62,219 bases of DNA from a virus (Duplodnaviria; Heunggongvirae; Uroviricota; Caudoviricetes): IMG/VR virus record IMGVR_UViG_3300033148_004507. One strand, written 5' to 3'. Shown one piece after another: positions 29,758 through 56,719 of this stretch (the stretch's first letter is position 1; each line of letters begins with the position of its first letter). The position numbers and the translations under genes are program-made. The notes beneath the pieces were generated by a model. That model was not told the origin of the DNA. It ran no database searches and saw only the letters and a program-made list of their open reading frames with translations.

Positions 29758-29758
29758 T

Positions 29759-32508: not shown

Positions 32509-32511
32509 AAG

Positions 32512-33198
32512 GTGGATATAATGAAACAGACGAGTATATTAAATGAAAAATGTGAGTGTGGAAGAGACATTGACTATTTTGAATTAAAAGGTAAAGAATT
32601 AAAAGAGAAAAAAGACAAAAGAAAATTAATATACAAGCTTCTATTTTTAATCGGAGCGATATATTTCACAATATGGACATCTATGTATTTTATATTCAAA
32701 GATTTTGATGGTGATGGATTTATGAAAAGATTCACATTCATATATCTAGGTTTGATTTCTATAGCATTATTAACTGCATATATATTTATTAAAACAGATG
32801 ACAAATACAATCCGAAAAAAGCCAGAAAAAGCTTTATATCGTGGAAAAGACAGACAAAGATATATAATAAATTAAATAAGAGCCAGAGAAAAGCATTATG
32901 GAGAACAATCACAATATCATTTATAATGGCGATTATTCCATTTTTAATAATGATAGGATTATTCATAAAATTTATAATGATTCCAGTAATAGAAGCAAAT
33001 GATATTGAATTGATGATTGTTCTTATAATATTCTTATTCGCAGGAATGGTTTTAAATAGAGCGAAAAATAAACCGAAATCACTCGAAATGAGATTATTTG
33101 AATATTTAATAAAGAATTCAAGAAAAAGAGTGCGTGATAAACATGGCTTCGATATTGATAAAATAATAAATTATAAGAAGTATCATAGGAGGACTTAA
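32512..33198 (+). CDS. Multi-pass membrane protein
   Basis: Four TM helices. Confidence 0.65.
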   Translation: MDIMKQTSILNEKCECGRDIDYFELKGKELKEKKDKRKLIYKLLFLIGAIYFTIWTSMYFIFKDFDGDGFMKRFTFIYLGLISIALLTAYIFIKTDDKYNPKKARKSFISWKRQTKIYNKLNKSQRKALWRTITISFIMAIIPFLIMIGLFIKFIMIPVIEANDIELMIVLIIFLFAGMVLNRAKNKPKSLEMRLFEYLIKNSRKRVRDKHGFDIDKIINYKKYHRRT

Positions 33199-33199
33199 A

Positions 33200-33739
33200 A
33201 TGGGAATAGAAGATGATGAATATGACATAATAGACAACGAAGATATAGAAGATATAGACCGTGAGATACGAAGTAAAAGTGTTCGCAGAAGGGATAGGGG
33301 CCGAGAGAAAAAGAAATTACCATGCCCAGAGGACTGTCCAAGATTTGAGTGCTTGGTCGGAGATAATTGCAAAGAGAATTGCAAGGAATTAAAATTCGCT
33401 AAAGCACAGATATGTGATTTATGCATTCATAATGACACATGCAGTAGTAAATTGAAGATAATTTTGCTAGGCGGTCAGTATATCCAATCATTTAAAGAAA
33501 ATAAGGTGGACGATATAATATGTGGTGCTGTCCAACTCAAGGATGAACATAGGATGTTAGAAAGAGAATATCGCACTATAACCGATGAATTGACCAAGCT
33601 CAATTGGTATAATCTTCTCCAAAAACCCAAAATGCTTAACAAAAAAGGTAAAAAAAGAATGGAAATCATTATAGCCAGAAAATATTTGAGTATATTGAAA
33701 ATAAAATTCGAGGTAGGTTTGAACTTTGACAATAAATGA
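33200..33739 (+). CDS. Cys-rich hypothetical protein
   Basis: CPEDCPRFEC...NCKENC...CDLC. Confidence 0.65.
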   Translation: MGIEDDEYDIIDNEDIEDIDREIRSKSVRRRDRGREKKKLPCPEDCPRFECLVGDNCKENCKELKFAKAQICDLCIHNDTCSSKLKIILLGGQYIQSFKENKVDDIICGAVQLKDEHRMLEREYRTITDELTKLNWYNLLQKPKMLNKKGKKRMEIIIARKYLSILKIKFEVGLNFDNK

Positions 33740-33779
33740 TTCCCATAAATATAAATATTCTAAAATTAATAGGGGCTTT

Positions 33780-36161: not shown

Positions 36162-39100
36162 AAACTAGAATTATAATAATAGCGATAATATCTTGTTTGA
36201 TATTAATGAATTTCTCACAGGTCGTATCTGCCGAAGTAACTCAGGTAAGTAAAACACTATACATTCAACCGAATTTTAATTTTGATTATACGACATCTCT
36301 TAACATTGTCAATAAAAGTAATATAAATTATACAAATACCGAATTATTGATAGAGCCATTCATACTAGATTCTGGCATAGATGGGGGTTTTTCAGGCTCA
36401 TTTTTACCGCCAGCTAAGTTTCAATTAAACGATGCGACATCATCAAGTACGAATGACCATCTAATATTATCTTCAATTGTCGAATTCAATAGAAAGAATC
36501 TCTTATCTGGTTCGTCAGTATCGTGGTGGAGATGCCCATATTTTTATAATTCTAGTATACCTGCATCAAGAGATTGGGGACTGACTCTTTCAATATACCA
36601 TCTTAACACACCACGTACTGCAAACTTATCATTCGAATATGCTGGAGGAATTAGTAATTATCCAGTTGTTCCGACATTACATTCTGACCCATCATTAATT
36701 TTTACAAAAACATATTCAGATTGTGGTCAAACACAAAATGATAACCAATGGAATTTCACAAGATTTGGCAAGCTACCATTGAATGAAACTCTTCTCGACC
36801 CAGATTTACCATTGCAAACAGACTCTTTAGAGCCAGATTATAATCCATATATGTGGATGATAGATAATAGTTACAATATAACTATAGATTATAGTATGGC
36901 TTGGTTTAACGTAACAGCCCCAATATATCCTGGGGAGGCATACATGGTAATTTGGGACATTATTGATTCCACAACAAGCCCAAACGAGGCAGGTAGTTTC
37001 TGGTTAACTGCATCAGATATTGGAAATAATTATTATGGTAAGACATTAGTTTCATGGAACGATAGAGATATATTCGAGATACCATTAGATTTAGATTCAT
37101 CTGTGATATTTCAAGTAGGCATGGGTTCTGGAGTAACTGGTGAAAAATTACAAGATAATATAGTTGGATATAATGACCACACAGCCTTTTTATCTAACCC
37201 TAGCTTTGAGAGTACAACTTTTAAATTCCAACGTGATTTTAGCTCTTCTTTTGCAGTAGAAGGATGGCATACTAACATTAATGGAATTTGTAGTATAAGT
37301 CATAATAGTGCATCAGGTCGAGCAGAATTTGATTTTGATGAAACAGGTTCTTTAACATCTGGGTCTAGTGGAATATCAGGGGATTTGGGCATAACCTGGG
37401 CCGAAATGTATTATGATTTTCTAACATTATGGGGTACAGACGGTGAGAATGCAAAATTTGATATTACAATGAATCCAATTGAAGTTGTAGACACATTTGG
37501 AAGTGGGACAGCATTCACATCATCATTAATGGTTGGTTTATTCAGTACGACTGGAGAACATAGTAGAATAATAATAAAAAGATGGGCATTTGTAGATGCA
37601 GTTACAGAAGTTGTAACATATGACCATAAAGTAGGAGTTTTCAATTCAGGGGGAACTTGGGATTATTATCCAATACCGTATGAGATATTCCCAACCAATT
37701 TCTACTTATCTTTACAATCTGATACTGTCACAGGAAACACAATAGTACATATGTATGACCACAATAATCCAAATAAAATTTGGTTTAGTTGTATGGCTCC
37801 TTCATCATACACGGGAACAACATCGATAGATGGCATATATTTCGCAGGTGCTATAGAGGCATCGACTTTAAATACAGATGTGGTTCAAGATGGTCTTGTG
37901 GCAATAGCAATAGATAAGCTCTCTGTAACCGAGAGGGGAGATTCATCATGGTCATATTATGGTGGAGCCGACATATTATGGTCTAAGAACAATTTCTGGG
38001 ATGGATTCGAAACAGTTGTTCCAGGGTACGATGGAATTCCAGCTACTCTTAATGAACAAGCTTTAGCCGTAACTCATAGGGGGACTGGTGCTGTACAAGC
38101 ATGGGTTCAACAAAGCATTCCAGTTGCATTTTTCGATAAACGTGTATTTGCTACAGCATACTATAGAATGCAAAATAATATACCATCTGATACATTCATA
38201 ACTATAGGTCTATCTGGTTGGGATGGGTCTTGGCATAGCGTATCGGACAGTTATTACGTAAGAGATGTTGCTTGGCATCAAGTTAGTACGGGGCATTTAG
38301 TTGGCAGTTTCAGTCAGGTAAGAATAACAATATCTGCATGGTTTCCAGCGAATTCTCCTGCGGATTTAAACATGGCATTTTTCGATGATATTAATATTTT
38401 TAGTATTGATAACTTACCTAAAAACACTCATGAGTTCTATCAAGAAGTAGACCACACTGAATTTAATGCAATTAACTATTACTCATTCATGTTTCCTATA
38501 AAACACGCAATAGCTCCAGATTTCCCACCATATTGTAGATTAGATTTCAGAAATTCTGTAGGTACAATAATGTTAACAAAATATACAATGCCCACAGATT
38601 TCTATGATGATTTTATAATGTGGGGGATACCTACATCAGACATAGACCCCGCAGTAACGGATGTAAAGATTACCTTAATAAATTATTGTGAAGATGCCTA
38701 TATATTCATGTATGATAGAAATAGCGATTTCAATTTCAATGATGAATTTAACACGGATTATAATTATATGAAAGATGTTGATACAACATCCACAACAGTT
38801 AAAGAAACATTCTACTCTCCATTTTATTCATTAAGGGCAACAGAGGGCCAATGGATTAATGCAGATTCGGATTTCACGACTACATATTTCTATTATGTAA
38901 CTGTAAGATTTGTGACATTTAGAGATAATGATGTGGAGATAGTATCAATAGAATTCCATACAATAGATGTTGGTAATTTAGAAATGTTTACTATGAATTT
39001 AAAATCATTTGGTAATGTATATAATGATGCTGAATGGCTGGCATATCTTGAGTTAAGGAATCGTCCAGATTTCTGGGATGTGGTTAGTGATTGGTTTGTA

Positions 39101-39430
39101 TTACTGAGTGGCATAGGGATATGGCAGTATACGATTGGTAAGTTCATTTATAAAGTTATAGAATTCCTTACACCTCTAGTAGAGGATTTAATAAATTTAA
39201 TTCTTGAAGTGGTGGTATTAGTAATATCATTGATAATTTATTTCCTATCTGTCTGGATAATGTGGAAATTTGTACGGTTCTGGATATTAATTGCTGAAGG
39301 TAAAACGGAAGAAGCTATAATGGAATTCCAGAGTGTCACATCAAGCATTACTGGGGCCGTTACGGGCATTGCTACAAAGGTTTCAAGTGGGGGGTCAAGA
39401 GGTAAGGGCGGGAGGTTAAGGGGCAAATGA
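36158..39430 (+). CDS. Largest surface glycoprotein (spike/receptor-binding candidate); best start is ATA at 36158
   Basis: Signal peptide (M)KTRIIIIAIISCLILMNFSQVVSA|E needs 36158; GGAGGA RBS 7 nt upstream; CBM-like LSNPSFES; C-terminal TM helices and basic tail. Confidence 0.8.
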   Translation: MKTRIIIIAIISCLILMNFSQVVSAEVTQVSKTLYIQPNFNFDYTTSLNIVNKSNINYTNTELLIEPFILDSGIDGGFSGSFLPPAKFQLNDATSSSTNDHLILSSIVEFNRKNLLSGSSVSWWRCPYFYNSSIPASRDWGLTLSIYHLNTPRTANLSFEYAGGISNYPVVPTLHSDPSLIFTKTYSDCGQTQNDNQWNFTRFGKLPLNETLLDPDLPLQTDSLEPDYNPYMWMIDNSYNITIDYSMAWFNVTAPIYPGEAYMVIWDIIDSTTSPNEAGSFWLTASDIGNNYYGKTLVSWNDRDIFEIPLDLDSSVIFQVGMGSGVTGEKLQDNIVGYNDHTAFLSNPSFESTTFKFQRDFSSSFAVEGWHTNINGICSISHNSASGRAEFDFDETGSLTSGSSGISGDLGITWAEMYYDFLTLWGTDGENAKFDITMNPIEVVDTFGSGTAFTSSLMVGLFSTTGEHSRIIIKRWAFVDAVTEVVTYDHKVGVFNSGGTWDYYPIPYEIFPTNFYLSLQSDTVTGNTIVHMYDHNNPNKIWFSCMAPSSYTGTTSIDGIYFAGAIEASTLNTDVVQDGLVAIAIDKLSVTERGDSSWSYYGGADILWSKNNFWDGFETVVPGYDGIPATLNEQALAVTHRGTGAVQAWVQQSIPVAFFDKRVFATAYYRMQNNIPSDTFITIGLSGWDGSWHSVSDSYYVRDVAWHQVSTGHLVGSFSQVRITISAWFPANSPADLNMAFFDDINIFSIDNLPKNTHEFYQEVDHTEFNAINYYSFMFPIKHAIAPDFPPYCRLDFRNSVGTIMLTKYTMPTDFYDDFIMWGIPTSDIDPAVTDVKITLINYCEDAYIFMYDRNSDFNFNDEFNTDYNYMKDVDTTSTTVKETFYSPFYSLRATEGQWINADSDFTTTYFYYVTVRFVTFRDNDVEIVSIEFHTIDVGNLEMFTMNLKSFGNVYNDAEWLAYLELRNRPDFWDVVSDWFVLLSGIGIWQYTIGKFIYKVIEFLTPLVEDLINLILEVVVLVISLIIYFLSVWIMWKFVRFWILIAEGKTEEAIMEFQSVTSSITGAVTGIATKVSSGGSRGKGGRLRGK

Positions 39431-39771
39431 TAATAGCGGAGCTTCCATTTTGGGAATTATTGATTTATTATCTTTTACCAATAACAATAGGTGTTCTCTT
39501 ATTTGTTAGAATACTCAACCTTGTAATCGAGGCTATAGAGCGATTTAAAGAGAAAGCAATGTTGGTATTGCAAGACTTAGCTGATTTAATGTTATATTTG
39601 ATGTTCATAGTAGGTATAATAGGGATAGTCTATTATCTTCTAGGACAACAACCAGATGGCTTTTCAATATTTGATTTCTTAATTGAAGAGATGATTCCTA
39701 ATACTTGGTATATTCTATTATTATATGGTATATTGGTGAATTTACAGATATTATTGGGGAGGCATGATTGA
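39427..39771 (+). CDS. Three-TM membrane protein
   Basis: Hydrophobic helices. Confidence 0.7.
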   Translation: MIIAELPFWELLIYYLLPITIGVLLFVRILNLVIEAIERFKEKAMLVLQDLADLMLYLMFIVGIIGIVYYLLGQQPDGFSIFDFLIEEMIPNTWYILLLYGILVNLQILLGRHD

Positions 39772-39863
39772 TGGTAGATTTAGATATTATGTTGGGCTTA
39801 GTGACTGCATTAGTTGGATTAGCTCTCTTCAATCATATTGTCAAATTATTGTACAGGACTTAA
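39771..39863 (+). CDS. 30-aa hydrophobic peptide
   Basis: GGGAGG RBS, TGATG overlap, single TM. Confidence 0.45.
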   Translation: MVDLDIMLGLVTALVGLALFNHIVKLLYRT

Positions 39864-39905
39864 CATATTCCTAACTAAATAATGGAGTATATATAGTTTG
39901 GTGTT

Positions 39906-39917
39906 AAACCTTTATAA
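39906..39917 (+). promoter_or_regulatory. Putative archaeal promoter AAACCTTTATAA
   Basis: BRE/TATA consensus in the gap upstream of the 40154 gene. Confidence 0.5.
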
Positions 39918-40153
39918 TAGAGAACAGGTTTTATGGGTATTCATGCAAACAAGCATAAGCGACCAACGAGTACATCTGGGCAAGAGATGTAAAAACAGAA
40001 TGCCGAGTCTTTACAGACAGGAGGGTATTATATGAGTACCGATTTTAGTGAAATCTTGTAATACTTATTGTATTCAAGTGGATAGTCAAGTCATTTTCCG
40101 AGATGGAATTCTAATTTTGGCTAATCTCTTATCCCTATTAAGGAGAGGATTAA

Positions 40154-40735
40154 ATGAAATTAAGTTCCACCTTTGTGTTAATGCTGACTGCATTAATGGT
40201 GCTTGCTCTTGCATCACCATTAGTTATTGCTTCATCCGAAACTGGTGCAAACCAGAACAGGGTCGTAACCCTTACTGACCAGTATGCTGGAGAGGCCACA
40301 AACGCCACCGTTACCGTACCTAACATCTTGAGTAACGCATCTGCGAATTCATTTGCATTTGTAATTCTTGATGAGAGTGCTGGAACTGATGATTATACAT
40401 TCAACATAACCATCTGGGACAACAACGCAACTTGGTATAACGGAAGCGTTGACATCACGACCATAGTTGATGACAACGTAACAGGCTACGTGAACTTTAC
40501 AGCAGACACATTTGCTCTTGTAAATAACGCTAACATTACAGTTACAATGATTTACACGGGAAACTATTCCGTAGCAGATGTCTGGTATGGTGAGGTGGAT
40601 ATTATATCTGAGAATACTTACGCCATGCGTGTTACCGTAACAGGTATAATAATGTCAGTTATGGGATTAGCCATTATGCTAATGTTCATGGTGAAAATTT
40701 TCCAGAATATAAATATGACATCGAAAGATGACTGA
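40154..40735 (+). CDS. Small secreted, C-terminally anchored glycoprotein; candidate major envelope protein
   Basis: Signal peptide, nine NxS/T sequons in the ectodomain, C-terminal TM; AGGAGG RBS; AAC-rich codon use; followed by a terminator. Confidence 0.8.
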   Translation: MKLSSTFVLMLTALMVLALASPLVIASSETGANQNRVVTLTDQYAGEATNATVTVPNILSNASANSFAFVILDESAGTDDYTFNITIWDNNATWYNGSVDITTIVDDNVTGYVNFTADTFALVNNANITVTMIYTGNYSVADVWYGEVDIISENTYAMRVTVTGIIMSVMGLAIMLMFMVKIFQNINMTSKDD

Positions 40736-41544: not shown

Positions 41545-42066
41545 ATGGGTAAAAGTAATAGTCAAGGTTGGAAGGGCGAATCGAGGAGACATAGCATGGC
41601 CCGTATGGGATATAAGACAGTCCTCCCAGACGGTAGGAGACTCCACATGGGCGACTTTGTTGCAGGCGGGAGTATTCATGGATATAATGTAAATGAAATT
41701 TATGACCACTTTATTATCGCAATGTTATGGAGTTCCCACGATGATAATTATAAACATGAGGTACATTTGGAAGATAATTATGATATAGGCGATATTGATG
41801 CAGAAACAAAAATAGCCATAAAGAATCATATTGAATCATTTATAAAAGAAAATCATGAGATTATAAAGGAGTTAGAAATATCTGAAGAAATGATTGGTCA
41901 TGATTTATTTATGGATACACAAGGTCATGGGGTAGGATTTTGGGATAGGGGATATAGTTCGTTGGGAAATAAATTAAGCGAGAATGCAAGTAAATATTTC
42001 AACGATAGTATGTATGCTTATGCAGGTGATGATGGTAAAATCTATTTTGAAGGGGTAAGTGATTAA
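41545..42066 (+). CDS. Leader-tag protein 2 (extended leader ending FVAGG)
   Basis: GWKGESRRHSMARMGYKT; payload with GHDLFMDTQGHGVGFWDRG phage-type motif. Confidence 0.8.
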   Translation: MGKSNSQGWKGESRRHSMARMGYKTVLPDGRRLHMGDFVAGGSIHGYNVNEIYDHFIIAMLWSSHDDNYKHEVHLEDNYDIGDIDAETKIAIKNHIESFIKENHEIIKELEISEEMIGHDLFMDTQGHGVGFWDRGYSSLGNKLSENASKYFNDSMYAYAGDDGKIYFEGVSD

Positions 42067-42067
42067 T

Positions 42068-42637
42068 ATGAAAGGTAGAGGGCAAGGCTGGAAAGGAGAA
42101 TCGCAAAGGCACAGAATGAGTTCATACGGCATATCCACAACGGGTCAGGAAGGCCGATTGCATGGACTTGCAGTAAAAGAGGGTATTACACCTCTCGATG
42201 TAGACCGTAGAGAGCTATTAAAGGGCATGTACATTGAGATGGAGCATACAGACGACCCAATGGTTGCCATGCAGATTGCCTTAGACCATTTGGCCGAGCA
42301 TGACCATTATTACTCAGAGGTCTTGATAGACCATGAAGAGTTAGAAGCTAGTGGCCTTATGGACACCATAATTTCATCATTAATTCCTGTAATAGTTGAT
42401 AAGACATGGAGTACAGATACGAAAGCCTCTGGGATACCAAAATATAATGAACAAGAGTATGAACATGATTTAAAAAAATTAGAACAAATTACATTTGAAG
42501 AAGGACGTAAAATAAGCAAGTCACATTATCCAAAAAGTGAATATGATTTATTTGAAGAGAGATTAATCAGAAAATATGGTAGAGATGGATTTATGGATAT
42601 GCGTAGAGAAATGTATAAAAGAAATTTTGGAGGCTAA
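42068..42637 (+). CDS. Leader-tag protein 3 with DUF5661-like domain
   Basis: GWKGESQRHRMSSYGIST; KGMYIEMEHTDD...IALDHLAEHDHYY; LEASG. Confidence 0.8.
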   Translation: MKGRGQGWKGESQRHRMSSYGISTTGQEGRLHGLAVKEGITPLDVDRRELLKGMYIEMEHTDDPMVAMQIALDHLAEHDHYYSEVLIDHEELEASGLMDTIISSLIPVIVDKTWSTDTKASGIPKYNEQEYEHDLKKLEQITFEEGRKISKSHYPKSEYDLFEERLIRKYGRDGFMDMRREMYKRNFGG

Positions 42638-45890: not shown

Positions 45891-45896
45891 TTGAGA

Positions 45897-46349
45897 ATGG
45901 CAAAACCTAAAGGCTGGAAAGGAGAAACGCACAGACACAAGATGGCGGGTATGGGAATAAGCACGACCCCTCAGAAGTTCAGCGAGAGTTCTGGGCTTTG
46001 GTTTGAAAGTAACGGCATATCAAAGGATACAGTACGGCTTGTCAACATGATTGGTTTTGATAGCGTTGATATAAAGGTAGCTAAAGGCTACGAGAGAAGC
46101 GAATACGAGAAGGATGCCAGTATGATAGCTATATTGCCAGTTTCTAAAGCGAAAGCGAGTGTAGAGTGGTTGGAAGATGAATATGAATCGTCCAATCAAG
46201 TTAGAAAGCATAAACTCATGAACATCGTAAAGATGACAAGAGCCAGAATTTCAAGGGAACTTGGAATGAGAAACCCGTCATCTACAAAGGTTGAACTTCA
46301 TAAGAGCAGAAACCTATTCAATAATTTTATAGTGACGTATGGGGGCTGA
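45897..46349 (+). CDS. Leader-tag protein 9
   Basis: GWKGETHRHKMAGMGIST; FESNG. Confidence 0.8.
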   Translation: MAKPKGWKGETHRHKMAGMGISTTPQKFSESSGLWFESNGISKDTVRLVNMIGFDSVDIKVAKGYERSEYEKDASMIAILPVSKAKASVEWLEDEYESSNQVRKHKLMNIVKMTRARISRELGMRNPSSTKVELHKSRNLFNNFIVTYGG

Positions 46350-46906: not shown

Positions 46907-47614
46907 ATGGCAGGAGTTAAAGGCATGAAATGGGGTAGGACAAAGAGACAAACAAAAGGCAAAGGTCAAGGCTGGCATGGTGAAAGCCGAAGGCATTGGT
47001 TAGCCAAATTTGGCATTAGTACAGTTCTCCCAGATGGCAGGAGACTTCCTGTTGATAGATTCATTGCGATGGGCAATAAATCAGAACATTATCAAGAAGG
47101 ATATGAGGATGGAAGATTTTCTGCTGAAGTCAACATAGGCGAAGATTTCCATGAAATGATAGAAGCCTATAAAGAGGACAGAATCGGAGAGATAGTTCAA
47201 GAGCTTAGAGAGAATCAAACTCAAATGTCTGGCGACATATCATATGATGTAATGTATGATGAAGATGATAAGCCGAGTAAAACCAGATGGATAAAGCCAT
47301 CGGAATACGAGGAATGGGAAGAAGGATACTATAACGGTTTTTATGAGACTATTAGATTAGAATATATCCATGATAATATTATGGCTATTTATGATAATGG
47401 TGGAAGGTCATTTGATAGATATTCGATTATTTTCAAAGATGGAGATTTGGTTGGAATGAGTCATAATCCAAAATCACCACAAGGATTTAACCAATATTCA
47501 GGAAATATTAAGGAATGGGGTTTAAAAGATTTAAGCCATCTTGGGAAAGAAACAAATATTAAAGATTTAAGCCCTGAAATTCAGAATGCTATTGAGAAAA
47601 GGATAGGTGATTAA
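46907..47614 (+). CDS. Leader-tag protein 11 (GVKGMKWG followed by extended leader)
   Basis: MAGVKGMKWG...GWHGESRRHWLAKFGIST VLPDGRR; FIAMG; payload YDNGGRSFDRY...PQGFNQY. Confidence 0.8.
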   Translation: MAGVKGMKWGRTKRQTKGKGQGWHGESRRHWLAKFGISTVLPDGRRLPVDRFIAMGNKSEHYQEGYEDGRFSAEVNIGEDFHEMIEAYKEDRIGEIVQELRENQTQMSGDISYDVMYDEDDKPSKTRWIKPSEYEEWEEGYYNGFYETIRLEYIHDNIMAIYDNGGRSFDRYSIIFKDGDLVGMSHNPKSPQGFNQYSGNIKEWGLKDLSHLGKETNIKDLSPEIQNAIEKRIGD

Positions 47615-47615
47615 T

Positions 47616-48662
47616 ATGAGCAACGGCAAAGGTAGTGGATGGAAGGGTGAAAGTCACAGGCACAGGCTTGCAGGCATGGGCATTAAGACCGTGAATGATT
47701 TCAATTATAGCGGAGAAAATGGTCAGCTATTGGTCAGCAACGGTGTTACTGAATCATTTGCTAAATTGGGTGCAAAATTAAAGACTGGTTTTGCCAAGGC
47801 TAAAGTAGGGGTAGTTGATTTAGCGAGAGCTGGAGTTGAGAAAGGAAAAGAATTAAAAGAAGAAATATCATCCAAAACACATTCCACTCCTGACACGGCA
47901 GTTCCAATGATTCCACCAAGGGAAGGTCAGCCAGCATCAAAAAAGAAAAAGATTGGTGGTGCGGTAAAAACAACGGACACCCCATCTCAATTGAGAGCGA
48001 ATAAATCAAAAGAGGATATTGAAGGCATTAAGAGGCAAGCAAAAGCAACCCAGGAGTTCGAAGATGCAGTAGAAGATGTTTCTGATATTAGAGGGAAAGA
48101 CACCACATCACGTCCAGAAGGACAGCGAACATCAAGTGAACATCTGGACAGGACAATCAAAGGCGTTGCTCGAAGCGGTAGACAAACCAGGCCAGATATA
48201 AATGTCAATCAGGCCATGATGGAGAGTATAGATGCTGATGACATCATAGCCCTTGCTCAAAACAAGGAACAGCTTATCAAGTATACAACTGCACTTCAGC
48301 ACGACATGAATAAGATTGATGCCGAGAGGAAGGCGATGTCTGACGAATTCAAAAACATCGAAAGGACGAATCATAAAACTCTTCAGAATAGTCGTAGACT
48401 TCAGATGTCAAATTCCAAACAAGAGGTAGATAATATTAAGATGTCTGGACTTAAAAAACATAAAAGAGATAATAAAATCAAGCAAATCAAGATTAGAGAT
48501 GAAGCAGATTACAGAGGAAAGAGTAACGTCCTAAAAGACCAGAGGAGGCAACATCAAGTAGACCTCAGATTCGCAGATGACATCAACAAAGACTTAAAGA
48601 GACTGCATCGACAGATAGACAAAAGAGTTAAGATGATGATTGCATCAGGACAACCGCAATAA
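47616..48662 (+). CDS. Leader-tag protein 12 (long, basic, coiled-coil; core/scaffold candidate)
   Basis: GWKGESHRHRLAGMGIKT; LVSNG; ends MIASGQPQ. Confidence 0.8.
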   Translation: MSNGKGSGWKGESHRHRLAGMGIKTVNDFNYSGENGQLLVSNGVTESFAKLGAKLKTGFAKAKVGVVDLARAGVEKGKELKEEISSKTHSTPDTAVPMIPPREGQPASKKKKIGGAVKTTDTPSQLRANKSKEDIEGIKRQAKATQEFEDAVEDVSDIRGKDTTSRPEGQRTSSEHLDRTIKGVARSGRQTRPDINVNQAMMESIDADDIIALAQNKEQLIKYTTALQHDMNKIDAERKAMSDEFKNIERTNHKTLQNSRRLQMSNSKQEVDNIKMSGLKKHKRDNKIKQIKIRDEADYRGKSNVLKDQRRQHQVDLRFADDINKDLKRLHRQIDKRVKMMIASGQPQ

Positions 48663-50032: not shown

Positions 50033-52708
50033 ATGAAAAAGATATTAAGTATTGGATTGATTAGCCTAATGATTTTAACAATAATAACACCACTGGCAAA
50101 TGCAGTTGAGCAAGATAATCTTATAGTAAACGGAACTTTTGATGAAAACATGGATAATTGGAATCTTTTAATGTCTGAAAATTTCACTATATCATCCGAA
50201 GCTAGTAATTGCGTATTCAACACAACACACACAGATTTATTAGCAGATATGAATTATACTGATTTTCAAAACAACGTTACTTTGGTGAATATGACCTATC
50301 ATTATAATGATTTGTATGAAGGCACACCCACTCCATTAATATTAGGAGATGGATATATAGAACTAGTAAATACAACCACAAATCTTTTTAATCTATCATC
50401 AGATGGTTGGGAATATCAAGAAGTTGATTACCCCGAAGGGTATTTTGTTCAGGATGGGGGTAATTACACAATAGAAAGCAAGCAAAACCCTAGTTTTATA
50501 GTACCAGTATATGAAGATTATGACACTGATGAGCCGTCACAAGCAAACTTTCAAGGTAATGGAGAGAATTATTTCAAATGGAATGATAACAACGCAATAG
50601 AATGCGAATTTATAAACAACTGGACAGGTTTTGACATATCAGCTCGAAGATATTGGGATATTCCAGATATTGATAATCGTACATTTGAGATTGGTGATAC
50701 ATTTACATACGATACATTTGTACAATTAAACAATACCATACCTCATGATAGTGGTAGTATGACATTTATTATAATGAATAAAACATTTGATTCAACAGCC
50801 GATGCAGATGGAAATGCAAACGGAATATTAGCATCAATTTATGATGGTTCTAATGGATATGACGGTTATTGGGGTATTCGATTTTATGCAGGAGGCAGTA
50901 TTGGTGATGATGGTTATATCGCAGTAAGTGGTATAATAACGGATGCTGAATTTACTGATGGTGTTTGGCTAACAATATCTAACGAAGTTATAAGCACTAC
51001 TCCATTCTTTATAGAACCGACAATAGAAGTACATACAGATTCATATGTTTTAAAAGCATCAGAAACACTACCACCATTTCAATTAAACTATACATTAGAT
51101 TCCATAGCAATAAGTAATTTAGACTATGAAATGAATTTTTTTGGTTCACAAAGTCAAAATGAAACCGCAAATGGAAATGTATCGCATATTGGGTATTGGC
51201 ACATACCCGCATCGATGAGTACTAATACACAAGCACAATTCACAAAAACTATTAACATAACTAAAAATATGACCGTTGATGCTAAAGTATTATACAAACA
51301 TTATTATGATGCTCAAGCAGGATATATCTATTCTAATGCAACATTAAACAACAATCAAATAGATGGTGGAATGTCAGATTATGTAATATATACAAATAGT
51401 AAAAAGATACCATTATCTTGGCGTGAAGGTAAACTTGCAGAATCCGTTATAGTTGAACAAGGCACATTAGAATGTAATTTATCAACAATACACTCAACTG
51501 TAGAAGGCAATATTGATTTCCCTGCAAAATCAACACAATGGAAAGACCTTTGGGTGAATGGTACTACATACAATATGACTGGTGAAGTCATTTCTAATGT
51601 CAAGACAATGAATTATTTAGCCGATTGGCTTGAATTTACAATGTCGGTAGAAAAGCCATATGATACTACAAACCAATATTTCATAGCATATACAAGAAAT
51701 GGAGATACAGATACACCAGATGGTAGTTGGTCAAGTTGGTATGAAGTAACAAATTGGTATAGTGAAAATAATGATGAAGATTTAACATATTTTGGGCATA
51801 TTAATTCTCCAAATTCAGTCTATGGTCAGTACAGGGTAGAATTTTACAATAATATTACAGAAGAAACAATGAAAATTCATTCAATGGGATTATATTTAAC
51901 ACAAGCAGGTGTTAATGATGAATGGGGTTCGATAGAGCAGAAATTCACAAAACCATATACAAATTACACTACCTTAAAATATGATTATAAAATAGATTAC
52001 TTAAACAATACATCCAATGGTAATATTACAGTTATGGTGGATGATTATGTAGTAGCACAACATGACTTCACATTCTTCGAAACAAATTGGATAACTGAGA
52101 TACATTCTTTACCGATAGCATTTAATTCATCTGGGACATATAGTTTAAATATAACAGTAGAATCATCTTTCAACTCTACAAATGGCACAGCAATAATATT
52201 CTTCGATAACATTGAATTGCTAATTGAGAATCAAGCCCCTATAATTACATCATTTAATGTCCATAACGGTACATCAGTCGTAGATTTCAATGGTACATTT
52301 ACAGACCACACAAGAGATTCGAATTTTAATTATCTTGGCATGACTGGAATAGAATCTGCTAATATTAGCATTGGGATATTTGAATTTGATATTGATACGA
52401 TAACTTATATTGGTAATGGCACATTCTGGTTTGAAACAACTTGGATTGACCCTCCATTTGAAATATCGAGAAGAATCATACTAAATGCCACAGTTACGGT
52501 AACTGACACAACAGACTTATATGATACAGAAATGGTATCTGTACAATTACCAAGAGCATTTGATTGGATAATGGCATTGATGACATTTGGATTTGTAATG
52601 GTCATAATTATATTAATATTCCAGAGGCATCTTATGACTGGATGGGATTCGAACAAGAGTACAAGCGATGAGAATTTACTACCGAATATCATCACGGGAG
52701 ATAAATGA
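50033..52708 (+). CDS. Large secreted glycoprotein, CBM-like N-terminus, C-terminal TM anchor
   Basis: Signal peptide (ANA|VE); LIVNGTFDENMDNW; many sequons. Confidence 0.8.
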   Translation: MKKILSIGLISLMILTIITPLANAVEQDNLIVNGTFDENMDNWNLLMSENFTISSEASNCVFNTTHTDLLADMNYTDFQNNVTLVNMTYHYNDLYEGTPTPLILGDGYIELVNTTTNLFNLSSDGWEYQEVDYPEGYFVQDGGNYTIESKQNPSFIVPVYEDYDTDEPSQANFQGNGENYFKWNDNNAIECEFINNWTGFDISARRYWDIPDIDNRTFEIGDTFTYDTFVQLNNTIPHDSGSMTFIIMNKTFDSTADADGNANGILASIYDGSNGYDGYWGIRFYAGGSIGDDGYIAVSGIITDAEFTDGVWLTISNEVISTTPFFIEPTIEVHTDSYVLKASETLPPFQLNYTLDSIAISNLDYEMNFFGSQSQNETANGNVSHIGYWHIPASMSTNTQAQFTKTINITKNMTVDAKVLYKHYYDAQAGYIYSNATLNNNQIDGGMSDYVIYTNSKKIPLSWREGKLAESVIVEQGTLECNLSTIHSTVEGNIDFPAKSTQWKDLWVNGTTYNMTGEVISNVKTMNYLADWLEFTMSVEKPYDTTNQYFIAYTRNGDTDTPDGSWSSWYEVTNWYSENNDEDLTYFGHINSPNSVYGQYRVEFYNNITEETMKIHSMGLYLTQAGVNDEWGSIEQKFTKPYTNYTTLKYDYKIDYLNNTSNGNITVMVDDYVVAQHDFTFFETNWITEIHSLPIAFNSSGTYSLNITVESSFNSTNGTAIIFFDNIELLIENQAPIITSFNVHNGTSVVDFNGTFTDHTRDSNFNYLGMTGIESANISIGIFEFDIDTITYIGNGTFWFETTWIDPPFEISRRIILNATVTVTDTTDLYDTEMVSVQLPRAFDWIMALMTFGFVMVIIILIFQRHLMTGWDSNKSTSDENLLPNIITGDK

Positions 52709-53484
52709 TGAAATTCGTAAAAGGCTATTGCAGAGAGGGTCAAGTATTCAGAGGCAACCAGAAATTACCAAAAAAAAAGAGCAGTAATAAAAGCATATCT
52801 CAAAGCGATTCAAATAATGATTCTATACCAAAGACACAAGAATTAACCCCCTCTCAGAAAGTCAAATTAGATAAAGACATCAACACCGCCAATACAGTAT
52901 CATATGATAAGGCTTATAAAGATTATATGAAAAGAGAGGCTGAGAAGGTAAAATCGGAACGGAAAGCAATTAAGAATCAATCTCAGAATTCAAAAGGTTC
53001 TGGTTGGCATGATGAAAGTCAGAGACACGCACAAGCTAGGATGGGCATTAAGACTGCAAACAATACACAGTCTCCAGATACTATTCAACAACCTACAGAT
53101 ATTCCATCAGATGCTCCTACAGACATAACGAGTGATACAGGTCAAGTAAAACTTGCAAATAATATTCAAGATGATATGCATAAACTTGATAAATTATTAA
53201 GACATGCTACTAATTTATCTGACAAAAAAAGAGCCACTGAAAAACTGTTGGAGGCTGAGAAATATTATTTAAGATTATCTGATAAAATGAAACATCATAA
53301 AAATAATGTGGGAGAACTTCCCCAATGGGTTAATCAGACATGGCAAGGTACTGAAGATTTTGGTATAGATGGAACCGTAAGAAAGAAAATGGATAAGCTA
53401 TTGAATGCAGATAAAGATAACTTCGAGAAGAGGCAAGTCGAATTATTTAATGCAGTTAGATTGCCTACAGAACCAATTAGGTGA
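52705..53484 (+). CDS. Leader-tag protein 13 (tag internal, about 53000-53055)
   Basis: GSGWHDESQRHAQARMGIKT after a low-complexity N-terminus. Confidence 0.75.
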   Translation: MMKFVKGYCREGQVFRGNQKLPKKKSSNKSISQSDSNNDSIPKTQELTPSQKVKLDKDINTANTVSYDKAYKDYMKREAEKVKSERKAIKNQSQNSKGSGWHDESQRHAQARMGIKTANNTQSPDTIQQPTDIPSDAPTDITSDTGQVKLANNIQDDMHKLDKLLRHATNLSDKKRATEKLLEAEKYYLRLSDKMKHHKNNVGELPQWVNQTWQGTEDFGIDGTVRKKMDKLLNADKDNFEKRQVELFNAVRLPTEPIR

Positions 53485-53489
53485 TATGG

Positions 53490-54086
53490 ATGAAAAAGAA
53501 CAAAGGAAATGGATGGTATAATGAAAGCCATAGGCACAAATTAGCCTCAATGGGAATTAAAACAACATATAAATACAAAGGTAGTGGTAAGAGAAAACTT
53601 CAAATAATGCTTCCAGAATATACTAAGCAACAGATTACACACATAACAAAGATGGCTGACGAAGGCTCAAAAGAGTGGATTGCAGAGCTTAAAGTCAAAA
53701 ATGGGCAAATATATATGAATGACATCCAAATATCTCAGGAAGTAGACCACAGCTACCTTCATTGGGACTCAGGTGATGAGTTAGAAGATGTCGGATACAT
53801 ACACTTCCATCCGAAGAGCCTAATCCCCGAATTCACAGCACAGGACTTCGTATTAGCCATTAATGTTCACAATCTGAGAAAAAATAAAAATATATATCCA
53901 TATACTATTATGGGATTAATATACCCCACTAAAAAAGGATATGAAATCAAAATGTTCGGAATTAATCCAAGTGAAAAGAGAATTGAAGATTTCGAAGGCT
54001 TAATAGCTGTCGAAAGTAATATGAAAGATAAGTTAAAACAGATGGAGGCATCTGGAGAGCTAATCAAAATGAGGGAGAGAAAATAA
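53490..54086 (+). CDS. Leader-tag protein 14: JAB/MPN(JAMM)-like metalloprotease
   Basis: GWYNESHRHKLASMGIKT; KEWIA (Glu) ... IHFHPKSLIPEFTAQD (HxH-x8-T-x2-D, close to JAMM HxH-x7-S-x2-D); ends MEASG. Confidence 0.7.
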   Translation: MKKNKGNGWYNESHRHKLASMGIKTTYKYKGSGKRKLQIMLPEYTKQQITHITKMADEGSKEWIAELKVKNGQIYMNDIQISQEVDHSYLHWDSGDELEDVGYIHFHPKSLIPEFTAQDFVLAINVHNLRKNKNIYPYTIMGLIYPTKKGYEIKMFGINPSEKRIEDFEGLIAVESNMKDKLKQMEASGELIKMRERK

Positions 54087-56719
54087 TGAAACAAGACAGA
54101 GGGTTTACAAACGGACTCTCTAAATCCAAATTGCCATCTGGTAAATCATCAGACTCACCGAATGGTTTAACGAATGGCATGGGTAATAATCATCTTGGCA
54201 TGATAAATGGCAATGGTCATACAAATGGTATGGTAAACGGCTCATACAAGCAAATAAATGATATTAAAATTAATTTCAATAATCCACATAAAGTATCTAA
54301 AAAGTTTGCAATATTGGCAGTAGCAATACTTTTATTATCTATAATTTCAATTTCAATAATAATTGAACATGATATTAATGCCATCAGGCCAGTTATCGAT
54401 GGAGATTATAGGGAGTGGGATGATATGAATGATATTGGTTTTGGCAAGCTCGGCATTATTCAACAAGACAATAAAATATTATTTGCTCTTGAAAGGAATA
54501 ATATATTATCTGGTAATGGAAATATAACAGAATCATACTATTTCTTTATAAATGATATAAATTCTGAAGAAGGATTCTATCTTGGATATGATACATATGA
54601 ATATTACATTGACATATTTGGACGGGATGATAGAATATTTGATGCGAGAGGCTATCAATTTGACGAATCAAAAAAGAACAATGATTGGGCGGGCTTCACA
54701 TCTAAATACAGTTCATATAGCATACCATGTGCAAATAATAAAACAATAATTGAATTCGAAATCAATAGTATTATGTTAGGACATCAAAGTTTTGATAATA
54801 AAAGCCTTTTAATTTACCATTATGATACCGATGGTGGATATGAATACAGTCAGATATTAGATTTAAATCAAAACTCAACAAGTAACCAAATAAGTAATAC
54901 AAGGTCTGAAGTTTCAATAACATATAAACACATATTTGAAAAAAATGAACTCAATATAATAACAGAAAAACCATTAGCTTATCTCTCTATCCCATATGAA
55001 ATTCGAATAATTCAAGATAGAATAGAAACAGAGATATTTGAACCAATCTCGGAACAAATAAATATAACTGTGATTGAAGATAAATATATAGAACCTATTA
55101 AATCAATTATGACTGAAGAGAGAGGAACAAAAATAATAATTGATTACTACAATCATAAACCAGATATGATAGAGCAATGCGGGGGGCATATAATAAATAG
55201 TACAGTAGATGTGAACATTACTGATAAAGGACTTACATTATATAATTTTAATAAAACAGTCAAATCTATGAAAATAACTGGAGATATAAATACTACAATT
55301 ATAGGAGACATCACAAGGTCGGGGGCTATAAATATATCAAATTCATCATTACCTCCTAAAGAATCGACAGGTTCTATATCATCTATGAAGGCAGAAGAAT
55401 ATGATACCACAGAACAAGAAATAACAGTTGATGGTATATTAGACGAATATATCTGGGGTAGGATACCAACTGACCAATATTATATAGATGAAACATATGA
55501 TATGAAAATCTGGGTAGTAAGAAATTCCACACATCTTTTTATCGGAGTTCGTTCTATAGATGATGTTAGTGATGAAACATTAGATAAAACAGATATTTAT
55601 TTTGATACAGATAATGATAAAACTATCACTCCAGATATGGGTGATAAAAAGATTAGAATTGATGGTACAGATACAATCACATACTATGAAGGAAATGGCA
55701 CAGCATGGGAATCCACTACAACTCCAATAGGTTGGGATGCAGGAGAATCATTAACAGATTCAGATAGGACATATGAATTTACTATTCCTATTTCAGATTT
55801 GAATGAAAATGAGCAATTCAATAGTGTGAATACAACGATTGGATTTGGAGTATGGAATATTGACGAAATAACTATAGGCACAACACCAAGACAGTGGCAT
55901 TTGTGGTATCCAGATGCTTATGAAAACGCAGACCCTCCAACAACACAATATGATGAAAAACCAGATACTTGGGCAGATTTAGAATTTGGTAATAATTTTA
56001 TAGGTACAGAATTTACAGATTATGATATGTTTTCACCGATTACATCTACGGCTATTACGATAGATGGAGACTTAGACGAAACAGCATGGTCAACAACAGC
56101 ATATGATTGGACTATAGATTGTAATGGTCATGAAGCATATTTATATGTGATGAAAGACACTACATATCTTTATATAGGTTGGTATTCAAAAAATTATAAC
56201 ACACTCGAAGCAAATGATTTTTGTCAGATATATTTTGATACAGATTATGATGGTACATTAGACCCTGATGCGGGTGATAAATTATTAGAAATCAGCAATG
56301 ATAATTCTACAGCATATTTTTATGGTACTGGCACTGGTTGGGCATCAGGTACAATGCCTACAAATTGGCAAGGTTCGAATGGTATAACAACAGGAAATAT
56401 AACCTGGGAAGCAAGATTCACACTTTCTGAATTAGATACAAATAATAATTTCGGTGCAACAGATGAAATAATTGGATTTGGGATTAAAGTTGGGCATTCA
56501 TCAACAACACCATCATACACACTATCATGGCCTGATGCATGTGAGCATGATTTTGAGATGTCAAGATATGAATATCATCCTGAAAGTTGGGGAGATTTAA
56601 TCTATGCCGAGATTCCAGAATTTTCACAAATAATCCCAATGATAACATTTATGATGTCTATAATGATATTATTCACAATAAAAAGAAAAGATAAAGATAG
56701 GGAGGAATATGATAACTGA
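54086..56719 (+). CDS. Surface protein with N-terminal TNG repeats, tandem CBM9/DOMON-like domains and PEF-CTERM-like C-terminus
   Basis: FTNGL, NGLTNGM, HTNGMVNG; TM; ITVDGILDE and ITIDGDLDE repeats; IPEF + TM + KRK. Confidence 0.75.
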   Translation: MKQDRGFTNGLSKSKLPSGKSSDSPNGLTNGMGNNHLGMINGNGHTNGMVNGSYKQINDIKINFNNPHKVSKKFAILAVAILLLSIISISIIIEHDINAIRPVIDGDYREWDDMNDIGFGKLGIIQQDNKILFALERNNILSGNGNITESYYFFINDINSEEGFYLGYDTYEYYIDIFGRDDRIFDARGYQFDESKKNNDWAGFTSKYSSYSIPCANNKTIIEFEINSIMLGHQSFDNKSLLIYHYDTDGGYEYSQILDLNQNSTSNQISNTRSEVSITYKHIFEKNELNIITEKPLAYLSIPYEIRIIQDRIETEIFEPISEQINITVIEDKYIEPIKSIMTEERGTKIIIDYYNHKPDMIEQCGGHIINSTVDVNITDKGLTLYNFNKTVKSMKITGDINTTIIGDITRSGAINISNSSLPPKESTGSISSMKAEEYDTTEQEITVDGILDEYIWGRIPTDQYYIDETYDMKIWVVRNSTHLFIGVRSIDDVSDETLDKTDIYFDTDNDKTITPDMGDKKIRIDGTDTITYYEGNGTAWESTTTPIGWDAGESLTDSDRTYEFTIPISDLNENEQFNSVNTTIGFGVWNIDEITIGTTPRQWHLWYPDAYENADPPTTQYDEKPDTWADLEFGNNFIGTEFTDYDMFSPITSTAITIDGDLDETAWSTTAYDWTIDCNGHEAYLYVMKDTTYLYIGWYSKNYNTLEANDFCQIYFDTDYDGTLDPDAGDKLLEISNDNSTAYFYGTGTGWASGTMPTNWQGSNGITTGNITWEARFTLSELDTNNNFGATDEIIGFGIKVGHSSTTPSYTLSWPDACEHDFEMSRYEYHPESWGDLIYAEIPEFSQIIPMITFMMSIMILFTIKRKDKDREEYDN

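What the first reader, a model, noticed from the sequence alone, without database searches (positions are those of the whole stretch)
53490..54086. A tagged JAB/MPN metalloprotease is the in-window candidate for processing the cargo
Seen: leader tag, then Glu (KEWIA) and HFHP-x7-TAQD, and its own C-terminal MEASG site. Established: JAMM/MPN+ enzymes are Zn isopeptidases that cut after the C-terminal Gly of ubiquitin/SAMP-like proteins, and phage and CBASS JABs act on Ub-like conjugates. Inference: either it is the co-packaged maturation protease for the x-[AS]-x-G sites, or it is a delivered effector that removes host SAMP/Ub-like defence conjugates. The spacing (x8, Thr) deviates from the canonical x7-Ser.
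Basis: partly seen in the sequence, partly recalled or inferred. Interest (0 to 1): 0.7.

Follow-up and report, generated by a model that had tools for sequence, protein, structure and literature searches.

The report
Tagged divergent JAMM protease, archaeal virus
An uncultivated archaeal virus encodes a small zinc protease of the ubiquitin-trimming (JAMM/MPN+) type that carries the same short N-terminal address peptide as about twenty neighbouring proteins, but the evidence suggests it is one of the addressed proteins and not the enzyme that processes them.

Summary
ORF 53490-54086 (198 aa) has the shared tag (residues 8-25), then a core that folds as an MPN/JAB domain: about the first 34 structural matches are JAB proteins, Z 8.8-6. 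E62, H105, H107, S/T116 and D119 are conserved in 45 relatives down to 28% identity. Pfam, PHROGs and PDB sequence searches miss the window protein; only a few relatives touch JAB models weakly. The spacer is one residue longer than canonical.

- It is the only recognisable peptidase in the window.
- Its 'MEASG site' sits in a confidently folded helix-strand junction and is kept in 4 of 26 close relatives.
- Tag arrays in three other archaeal genome bins (12, 11 and 19 tags) have no such JAB.
- The h-x-[AS]-x-G motif is enriched in this virus (18 vs 1.1 expected) and one relative, but not in two other JAB-bearing relatives.
- The JAB's tag follows each genome's own tag flavour.

My reading: a catalytically intact JAMM (iso)peptidase that is a client of the tag system, probably acting on a Gly-ended (ubiquitin-like/SAMP-type) substrate. 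The substrate is unknown. No Ubl, E1 or E2 gene was found. A first-stage note flags a similar tagged JAB in another genome.

The parts
53490..54086 (+). Gene for the 198-aa tagged JAMM/MPN+ protein (P0001), stop codon included
   Evidence: ORF list and sequence; 38 homologues; GGTGA 5 nt upstream of the ATG; the stop overlaps the start of the next gene by 1 nt.
53511..53564 (+). N-terminal address tag GWYNESHRHKLASMGIKT (residues 8-25); flexible leader, residues 1-36
   Evidence: The motif occurs in 19-20 ORFs of the window. W9, H16 and G22 are conserved in the JAB family. pLDDT is below 50. Codons differ between copies while residues stay the same, so selection acts on the peptide. The JAB tag is closer to same-genome tags than to orthologous JAB tags.
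53598..54083 (+). MPN/JAB catalytic domain (residues 37-198)
   Evidence: AlphaFold2 pLDDT is 83-95 for most of the core. VIA-align Z 8.8-6.4 to Rpn11, Sst2/AMSH, BRCC36, Prp8 Jab1, Cap3, PfJAMM1, AfJAMM and RadC. Foldseek E 6e-5 and probability 1.0 to the same set. BFVD and ESM Atlas matches are JAB proteins.
53673..53675 (+). Putative catalytic Glu E62 (KEWIAE)
   Evidence: Invariant in A1 and A2. hhalign aligns it with the Glu of PKEM in an archaeal Prok-JAB protein.
53802..53846 (+). Zinc-site motif H105-x-H107-x8-T116-x2-D119
   Evidence: H105, H107 and D119 are invariant; position 116 is always S or T. The spacer is x8 in all but one member (P0054, x7). hhalign register: GYIHFHP with GTVHSHP and TAQD with SSAD, with a one-residue insertion.
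54042..54056 (+).
   Evidence: Present. Kept in only 4 of 26 close relatives and in none of the distant ones. It lies in a confidently folded helix-strand junction.
50033..52708 (+). Upstream 891-aa membrane-anchored surface-type protein (signal peptide, C-terminal TM); syntenic partner of the JAB gene
   Evidence: The order ~430 aa, ~900 aa, (small tagged ORFs), JAB, ~700-1260 aa membrane protein is kept in the window, L003 (upstream side cut by the contig end), L006, L048 and L049 and partly in G001.
54086..56719 (+). Downstream 877-aa membrane protein with N-terminal G[MF]TNG repeats; start overlaps the JAB stop
   Evidence: Orthologues directly follow the JAB gene in L006, L003, L048 and L049.

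Best explanation
Shown:
- The gene encodes a highly divergent but catalytically complete JAMM/MPN+ zinc (iso)peptidase.
- It sits behind the roughly 18-residue N-terminal peptide that this archaeal virus lineage places on about 20-25 otherwise unrelated accessory proteins.
- The family is rare and nearly every member carries the tag.
- The tag on the JAB follows the tag flavour of its own genome.

Inferred:
- The JAB is a client of the tag system. It is sent wherever the tag sends its bearers; into the virion or to a shared docking partner are both possible.
- It is not the system's dedicated processing enzyme.
- Zinc held by H105, H107 and D119 activates a water molecule positioned by E62, with S/T116 stabilising the intermediate.
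- It would cut a peptide or isopeptide bond after a small, Gly-ended tail.
- By family precedent the most likely substrate is a ubiquitin-like (SAMP/ThiS/MoaD-type) conjugate or precursor of the host. That would make it a virus-supplied 'de-tagging' effector for counter-defence or take-over of host proteostasis.
- The substrate itself is not identified.
For: Fold and active site:
- MPN fold.
- Invariant E, HxH, S/T and D across 45 sequences down to 28% identity.
- Register confirmed against two archaeal Prok-JAB proteins.
- Weak direct hits of family members to Prok-JAB (6.9e-4), JAB (0.054) and PADLOC JAB models (1.9e-4).

Client status:
- 17 of 19 divergent members keep the tag at the N-terminus (P0055 further in, P0043 not), and H16 is invariant.
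- The JAB tag is 0.59-0.92 identical to same-genome tags, against 0.38-0.57 to JAB tags of other genomes, in 5 of 5 genomes.
- The tag is under peptide-level selection.

Not the universal processor:
- Tag arrays of 12, 11 and 19 ORFs in three archaeal bins have no JAB-core match and no HxH...[ST]xxD ORF on the tag contigs. The only Prok-JAB hits lie on other contigs.
- The second motif is not enriched in JAB-bearing L048 and L049.

Other points:
- Payload arrays hold other enzyme-like proteins, including tagged zincin-like HExxH proteins next to distant JAB members, as expected of an effector set.
- Precedent (PDB titles): PfJAMM1, Cap3 and bacterial Ubl-deubiquitinases share the fold.
- A bacterial Ubl system attacks a phage host-recognition protein (10.1101/2023.09.04.556158).
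- JAB-like domains occur in proteins annotated as phage 'minor capsid protein'.
Against: - No substrate is identified.
- No Ubl, E1 or E2 family was found by Pfam in the window or in the complete 74-kb relative. The host genome is not available.
- Packaging of tagged proteins is unproven. No capsid, portal or terminase hallmark was found in the complete relative.
- The one-residue longer spacer and Thr in place of Ser are untested for activity.
- The JAB-less tag arrays lie on contigs of unknown completeness (no terminal repeat on G002:C4).
- Conserved synteny with two membrane proteins could point to a local assembly role instead.
Confidence: 0.45

Rival explanations
1. Cargo-maturation protease. 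The JAB travels with the tagged proteins and cuts them after the Gly of h-x-A-S-G-type sites, or after the invariant Gly of the tag. This would release payloads much as adenovirus protease cuts (M/I/L)-x-G-G sites inside the virion.
For: - The motif [LIVMF]-x-[AS]-[SGNM]-G occurs 18 times after the tags of the window's tagged proteins, against 1.1 in shuffles. It is not enriched in untagged ORFs (9 vs 6.4).
- In G001 the count is 7 vs 1.4.
- ASG is 5 times more frequent in tagged than in untagged ORFs.
- Many sites lie 5-30 residues after the tag.
- One site is kept at the C-terminus of orthologues that share only 28% identity (window 47607-48662 and G001 21775-22884).
- P1 = Gly fits JAMM enzymes (established knowledge).
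- The JAB is the only peptidase-fold gene recognised in the window.
Against: - The motif was defined on the same data, so the enrichment is inflated.
- It is not enriched in JAB-bearing L048 (1 vs 0.5) and L049 (1 vs 0.8).
- Tag arrays exist without the JAB.
- The JAB's own MEASG is not conserved and is buried in the fold.
- Known JAMM enzymes recognise a folded Ubl plus its tail, not short linear sites (established knowledge).
- The complete relative also has an SprT-like HExxH protein.
Confidence: 0.2
2. Local assembly or processing factor for the two flanking membrane-anchored surface proteins, comparable to the MPN domain of phage lambda tail-tip assembly protein K encoded beside the host-recognition genes. 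It might, for example, trim their Gly-rich cytoplasmic tails (G[MF]TNG repeats, ...ITGKG C-termini).
For: - The gene order ~900-aa signal-peptide/TM protein, JAB, ~700-1260-aa TM protein is kept in the window, L006, L048 and L049; L003 keeps the downstream part and G001 the order in part.
- Start and stop codons overlap.
- The cytoplasmic segments of the neighbours are Gly-rich and conserved.
Against: - In distant family members (L045, L047) the JAB sits among small genes, not between large membrane proteins.
- In G001 the downstream gene is a different 412-aa protein.
- The tag is the only universally conserved companion of the MPN core.
- There is no NlpC/P60 domain as in lambda K (protein ends after the MPN fold).
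Confidence: 0.15
3. Catalytically dead MPN scaffold (MPN-minus) that only binds a partner, as Rpn8, CSN6 or Prp8 Jab1 do.
For: - Several of the best structural matches are non-catalytic MPN proteins (Prp8 Jab1, KIAA0157, Rpn8, eIF3).
- The spacer is non-canonical (x8, Thr).
Against: - All five catalytic positions are invariant or S/T-only across the whole family. MPN-minus proteins lose these (established knowledge).
- One member has the canonical x7 spacing.
Confidence: 0.05

Closest known systems
Archaeal minimal JAMM/MPN+ enzymes (AfJAMM, PDB 1r5x; Pyrococcus furiosus JAMM1, PDB 5ld9; HvJAMM1-type desampylases)
   Same: - Single-domain MPN fold (Z 8.1 to 5ld9, 6.5 to 1r5x).
- Catalytic Glu in an x-x-E-hydrophobic-I/L-A-x-L strand, then HxH, S/T and D.
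- hhalign register to two archaeal Prok-JAB proteins.
   Different: - At most about 16% identity.
- No Pfam gathering-score hit.
- Spacer one residue longer, and Thr in this member.
- About 35 extra N-terminal residues carrying a virus-specific tag.
- Extra invariant W63, S88 and D96.
- Encoded by a virus.
JAB proteases of bacterial Ubl-conjugation defence operons (CBASS Cap3, PDB 9ild; Bil-type deubiquitinase, PDB 8tyy; BubCD, 9ea5)
   Same: - MPN fold (Z 8.1, 7.1 and 7.2).
- PADLOC JAB models are touched weakly by one family member each.
   Different: - No E1, E2, Ubl or CD-NTase gene nearby or anywhere in the window or the complete relative.
- It sits in a viral late block, not a defence island.
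Phage lambda tail-tip assembly protein K (MPN + NlpC/P60). Comparison from established knowledge, not tested by alignment here.
   Same: A virus-encoded MPN domain encoded next to large host-recognition or surface proteins.
   Different: - No NlpC/P60 domain; the 198-aa protein ends with the MPN fold.
- No recognisable tailed-virus hallmark genes in the relative.
Adenovirus protease (adenain). Functional analogue only, from established knowledge.
   Same: It would match the rival reading: a virion-packaged protease that cuts precursors after Gly in hydrophobic-x-G-G-type sites and also removes ubiquitin.
   Different: - Cysteine protease of an unrelated fold.
- Animal virus.
- No cleavage has been shown here.
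JAB-like domains in phage proteins annotated 'minor capsid protein' and crAss-like 'ubiquitin-like'/MPN proteins in BFVD
   Same: Foldseek matches at E 1e-4 to 1e-2: JAB folds joined to a virion-addressing module in viruses of prokaryotes.
   Different: - There the address is a large fused domain in a 400-630-aa protein; here it is an 18-residue peptide.
- No sequence similarity.
- The annotations of those entries are untested.

Membership tests
JAMM/MPN+ metalloproteases (JAB clan) | MPN alpha/beta fold | tested here: met
   AlphaFold2 core pLDDT is 83-95 for most blocks. About the first 34 VIA-align rows are MPN proteins, Z 8.8-5.9. The first 50 Foldseek rows are all MPN proteins. Z of about 8 is only moderate on its own; the uniformity of the list carries the weight.
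JAMM/MPN+ metalloproteases (JAB clan) | Catalytic Glu on the first core strand | tested here: met
   E62 is invariant and aligns with the Glu of PKEM in an archaeal Prok-JAB protein.
JAMM/MPN+ metalloproteases (JAB clan) | Zinc ligands HxH and Asp, plus the Ser/Thr of the S-x-x-D element | tested here: met
   H105, H107 and D119 are invariant; position 116 is S or T in all 45 sequences. Register confirmed.
JAMM/MPN+ metalloproteases (JAB clan) | Typical (not catalytic) detail: 7-residue spacer between HxH and Ser | tested here: not met
   The spacer is 8 residues in 44 of 45 members; P0054 has 7. hhalign places a single-residue insertion in the loop. I treat this as a variant of the motif, not as exclusion from the superfamily.
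JAMM/MPN+ metalloproteases (JAB clan) | Match to the curated Pfam models PF14464 or PF01398 above the gathering score | tested here: not met
   The window protein has no hit. Best among 19 relatives: Prok-JAB 6.9e-4 (2 members) and JAB 0.054. The Prok-JAB model finds nothing in G001 even at E 10. Membership is therefore at superfamily level; this is a new family within it.
JAMM/MPN+ metalloproteases (JAB clan) | Zinc binding and (iso)peptidase activity | not testable with these tools
   Needs purified protein.
Ubl-conjugation operon JABs (Cap3 / Bil type) | Adjacent E1, E2 and Ubl (or CD-NTase) genes | tested here: not met
   No ThiF, UBC, ubiquitin, ThiS or MoaD family among the ORFs of the window scanned or 102 ORFs of the complete relative. 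Divergent unannotated versions cannot be excluded.
Lambda gpK-type tail assembly proteins | C-terminal NlpC/P60 domain after the MPN domain | tested here: not met
   The protein has 198 aa and the MPN alignment runs to residue 198.
Prohead/capsid maturation proteases of tailed viruses (HK97 S78/U35, T4 gp21-type) | Serine-protease fold encoded between the portal and major capsid genes | tested here: not met
   The fold is MPN. No portal, terminase or HK97 capsid family was found in the window or the complete relative.

The most novel reading that the evidence does not exclude
A JAMM/MPN+ metalloprotease has been recruited as the maturation protease of an archaeal virus. It is addressed by the same N-terminal peptide as its substrates and cuts them after h-x-A-S-G sites. 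It would be a metalloprotease counterpart of adenovirus protease, whose site also mimics a ubiquitin tail, acting within a peptide-addressed cargo system of 20-25 proteins.
Probability: 0.15. Interest if true: 0.8.

Novelty: new variant of a known kind. Interest (0 to 1): 0.45.

Why it matters
JAMM enzymes are the ubiquitin-, SAMP- and Ubl-trimming proteases of all three domains of life. Here one is solitary, virus-encoded and invisible to the standard family models. It is wired into a peptide-address system that covers about a quarter to a third of the genes of these archaeal viruses.

If it removes host Ubl marks, it would be a virus counter-measure in archaea against ubiquitin-like modification, a topic so far studied in bacteria and eukaryotes. 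If it cuts the tagged proteins, it would be a new kind of viral maturation protease.

Either way it is an easily expressed 20-kDa enzyme with clear point mutants. That makes the otherwise opaque tag system experimentally approachable.

Tried and rejected
- Sequence searches of the window protein: Pfam (only DUF6955, E 0.14), PHROGs (nothing), PDB sequences with profiles A1 and A2 (no JAB hit at E up to 10), phage GenBank records by tblastn (nothing).
- Complex prediction, JAB core plus zinc plus tag peptide: score 0.02, no verdict. This is not evidence either way.
- The look-up of sequencing runs for 52705-56719: no run was listed, and no RNA holder was listed.
- Search for a Gly-Gly-ended Ubl among viral ORFs: two tagged proteins end in GG (42059-42637, 45891-46349), but their orthologues do not, so I dropped them as Ubl candidates.
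- Metagenome scan with the conserved upstream 891-aa protein, meant to count relatives with and without the JAB: only 2 loci came back, both from lineages already in hand.
- IMG/VR scans with the JAB and with the tag: a single 74-kb contig.
- Virion type: no capsid, portal or terminase family in the complete relative. The candidate structural proteins 30714-32144 have N-terminal TM helices and only 4 homologues, so I did not fold them.
- ESM Atlas feature search: only a weak lead (Prok-JAB on 13% of one cluster at rank 25).
- Literature searches found no description of this virus group or of the tag.

Full report
**1. What is there**

The window is AT-rich (36% GC) and almost all long ORFs lie on the plus strand. 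Earlier notes of this scan, which I did not re-test, call it an uncultivated archaeal virus, probably of Methanomassiliicoccales.

The ORF at 53490-54086 encodes 198 residues. The ATG is preceded by GGTGA five bases upstream. The stop overlaps the ATG of the next gene by one base.

Residues 8-25 (GWYNESHRHKLASMGIKT) are one copy of a peptide that I found in 19-20 plus-strand ORFs of the window. Most copies lie within the first 35 residues. The copies differ at synonymous codon positions while the residues stay fixed, so selection acts on the peptide and not on the DNA.

**2. The domain behind the tag is an MPN+/JAMM domain**

Sequence-only searches fail for the window protein:
- Pfam gives only an insignificant DUF6955 match.
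- PHROGs gives nothing.
- Profile searches of PDB sequences give no JAB hit.
- tblastn against deposited phage genomes gives nothing.

The protein nevertheless has 38 full-length homologues. An exhaustive profile search of 1.84 billion cluster representatives finds only 25 clusters, so the family is rare.

In a 19-member alignment at 28-59% identity:
- E62, W63, S88, D96, G102, H105, H107 and D119 are invariant.
- Position 116 is always Ser or Thr.
- The spacing HxH-x8-[ST]-x2-D is kept in all but one member, which has the canonical x7.

An AlphaFold2 model built on 26 sequences has a disordered leader (residues 1-36, pLDDT below 50). Most of the core scores pLDDT 83-95.

Against the PDB:
- All of the first 50 Foldseek matches are MPN/JAB proteins, best E 6e-5.
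- About the first 34 VIA-align matches are too, Z 8.8 to about 6.
- They include Rpn11, AMSH/Sst2, BRCC36, Prp8 Jab1, CSN5, Cap3, PfJAMM1, AfJAMM, RadC and a bacterial Ubl-deubiquitinase.

A Z near 8 alone would be moderate. The uniformity of the list is what counts. BFVD and the ESM Atlas also return JAB/MPN proteins.

Profile-sequence comparison with two genuine archaeal Prok-JAB proteins, recovered from the bins G002 and G004, sets the register:
- KEW aligns with PKEM.
- GYIHFHP aligns with GTVHSHP.
- TAQD aligns with SSAD, with one inserted residue in the viral family.

Two of the 19 divergent members touch Pfam Prok-JAB (best 6.9e-4) and one touches JAB (0.054). PADLOC JAB models are touched at 1.9e-4.

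This is a new, divergent family of the JAB superfamily with a complete catalytic set.

**3. Is it the processing enzyme of the tagged proteins?**

*For:*
- It is the only peptidase-fold gene I could recognise in the window.
[LIVMF]-x-[AS]-[SGNM]-G occurs 18 times after the tags of tagged ORFs against 1.1 in shuffles, with no enrichment in untagged ORFs (9 vs 6.4).
- The tripeptide ASG is five times more frequent in tagged ORFs.
- The complete relative G001 shows 7 vs 1.4.

*Against:*
- The motif was defined on these same data.
- Two other JAB-bearing relatives, with 11 and 8 tagged ORFs, show no enrichment (1 vs 0.5 and 1 vs 0.8).
- The JAB's own MEASG is kept in only 4 of 26 close relatives and in no distant one. 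In the model it lies between helix 175-187 and the last strand at pLDDT 93-95, an unlikely place for a cut.
- A degenerate DNA pattern for the tag found tag arrays in contigs of three archaeal bins labelled Methanosarcinales, Woesearchaeota and 'uncultured archaeon'.
- In those bins the family profile matches 12, 11 and 19 tags but never the MPN core.
- The only Prok-JAB hits there lie on other contigs.
- The tag contigs hold no HxH...[ST]xxD ORF.

The completeness of those contigs is unknown; G002:C4 has no terminal repeat. Absence is therefore provisional.

**4. The JAB as a client of the tag system**

- Seventeen of the 19 divergent family members keep the tag at the N-terminus (in P0055 it lies further in; P0043 has no recognisable tag). 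H16 is invariant, and W9 and G22 are nearly so.
- In five genomes the tag on the JAB is more like the other tags of its own genome (0.59-0.92 identity) than like the tags of orthologous JABs elsewhere (0.38-0.57).
- The tag therefore evolves in concert within a genome, as expected if all bearers meet one genome-specific (or host-specific) partner, and the JAB is one of them.
- Distant members sit next to other tagged enzyme-like proteins, including zincin-type HExxH proteins.

**5. Context**

In the window, L006, L048 and L049 the JAB gene lies between a ~900-aa protein (signal peptide, C-terminal TM) and a ~700-1260-aa membrane protein; L003 keeps the downstream part and G001 the order in part. 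Start and stop codons overlap. The cytoplasmic N-terminus of the downstream protein carries G[MF]TNG repeats in three of these lineages.

Distant members do not share this position. This keeps a lambda-gpK-like local role alive as a rival.

No Ubl, E1 or E2 family was found in the window or in the complete 74-kb relative with terminal repeats. No capsid, portal or terminase hallmark was found either. What the tag addresses its bearers to therefore remains open.

**6. Mechanism I commit to**

An active zinc JAMM (iso)peptidase that shares the common address of the virus's accessory proteins and cuts after a Gly-ended tail. Most likely the substrate is a host ubiquitin-like (SAMP-type) conjugate or precursor.

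- Shown: the fold, the catalytic set, the tag and client behaviour.
- Inferred: activity, substrate and destination.

Precedents:
- JAMM enzymes of archaea and of bacterial defence operons share the fold (PDB entries listed).
- A bacterial Ubl system disables phages by conjugation to their host-recognition protein (10.1101/2023.09.04.556158, read).

I put this reading at 0.45, the maturation-protease reading at 0.2, the local assembly role at 0.15 and a dead scaffold at 0.05.

**7. Comparison and novelty**

It works like a minimal archaeal JAMM. It is a member of the superfamily by fold and catalytic residues, but not of the curated Pfam families by score.

It differs by the longer spacer, the extra invariant residues W63, S88 and D96, and the N-terminal address peptide. 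It lacks the gene partners of Cap3/Bil-type JABs and the NlpC/P60 domain of lambda K.

I class it as a new variant of a known kind. The more unusual object is the tag system itself, which other reports of this scan cover. A first-stage note (e1-3281553) flags a similar tagged JAB in another genome.

**8. Dead ends**

- The complex prediction of the JAB core with the tag peptide gave no verdict.
- No sequencing run was listed.
- The metagenome and IMG/VR scans returned only lineages already in hand.

Noticed in passing
L006:9965-10000 and L006:60-105: In one relative the first half of the tag (GYYGRSREHA..., GYTGRSREHA...) is encoded in frame directly after a stop codon, with no ATG, GTG or TTG before it. 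The called genes start at the Met inside the tag (MNRKGI.T). Either a non-canonical start codon is used or these proteins carry half a tag.
   Followed up: partly
window 54086-54260 (and L006:10558-10760, L049:10576-10830): The protein encoded just after the JAB has an N-terminal, presumably cytoplasmic, stretch of 4-6 G[MF]TNG-like repeats before its first TM helix. The stretch is conserved in three lineages. It could be a docking site for cytoplasmic partners, such as tagged proteins. Untested.
   Followed up: no
window 40935-62056; G001 19047-47145 (loci L009-L011): The tripeptide ASG, usually as [LM]-[KREQ]-A-S-G, is five times more frequent in tagged than in untagged ORFs. It often lies 5-30 residues after the tag. 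The enrichment is lineage-specific: window and G001 yes, L048 and L049 no.
   Followed up: partly
L018, L022, L023, L032-L034 (G002:C4, 56 kb); L019, L021, L037 (G003:C50); L040-L044 (G004): Tag arrays of a slightly different flavour (W[FY]N[DE]S[FW]RHSLAAKG) occur on contigs binned with Methanosarcinales, Woesearchaeota (DPANN) and an unclassified archaeon. The structural genes are unrelated to those of the window virus. The address peptide is therefore shared by several lineages of archaeal mobile elements.
   Followed up: partly
L047:2-568 and L047:1130-1645: Next to a distant JAB member, two proteins carry a tag-like motif at their C-terminus (GWHGEHGRHSQAAEKGW..., GWYQDRIRHAQAAHLGW...) followed by an Arg-rich tail. 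The motif is therefore not tied to the N-terminus.
   Followed up: no
L045:17-727 and L047:1646-2359: Zincin-type metalloprotease motifs (HEMTH in a tagged protein; HEFGH in an untagged membrane-anchored one) lie beside distant JAB members. The payload sets hold more than one peptidase-like enzyme.
   Followed up: no
G001 (IMGVR_UViG_3300029267_002600, 74,350 bp, 144-bp terminal repeat; loci L009-L012); window 27966-40735: A complete relative has no Pfam or PHROGs match to terminase, portal, HK97 or other capsid families. The conserved 'structural' block before the tag array includes two adjacent paralogue-like ~230-245-aa proteins with N-terminal TM helices (window 30714-32144) and two giant proteins (811 and 1077 aa). 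The virion type is unknown.
   Followed up: partly
G001 1608-2312 (L009:1608-2312): An untagged SprT-like HExxH protein (LRHEYLHEW) is the only other metallopeptidase-like gene found in the complete relative.
   Followed up: no
window 22361-23992: A 543-aa Zot/DnaA-like P-loop ATPase is interrupted by a Hint (intein-type) domain and ends in an HTH. Its 441-aa orthologue in G001 has no Hint match.
   Followed up: no
G004:C2 27356-30590 and G004:C10 16204-16380: Several tag matches in this bin have in-frame TGA or TAA stops inside the match. They could be decayed copies or a sign of another genetic code. Not examined.
   Followed up: no
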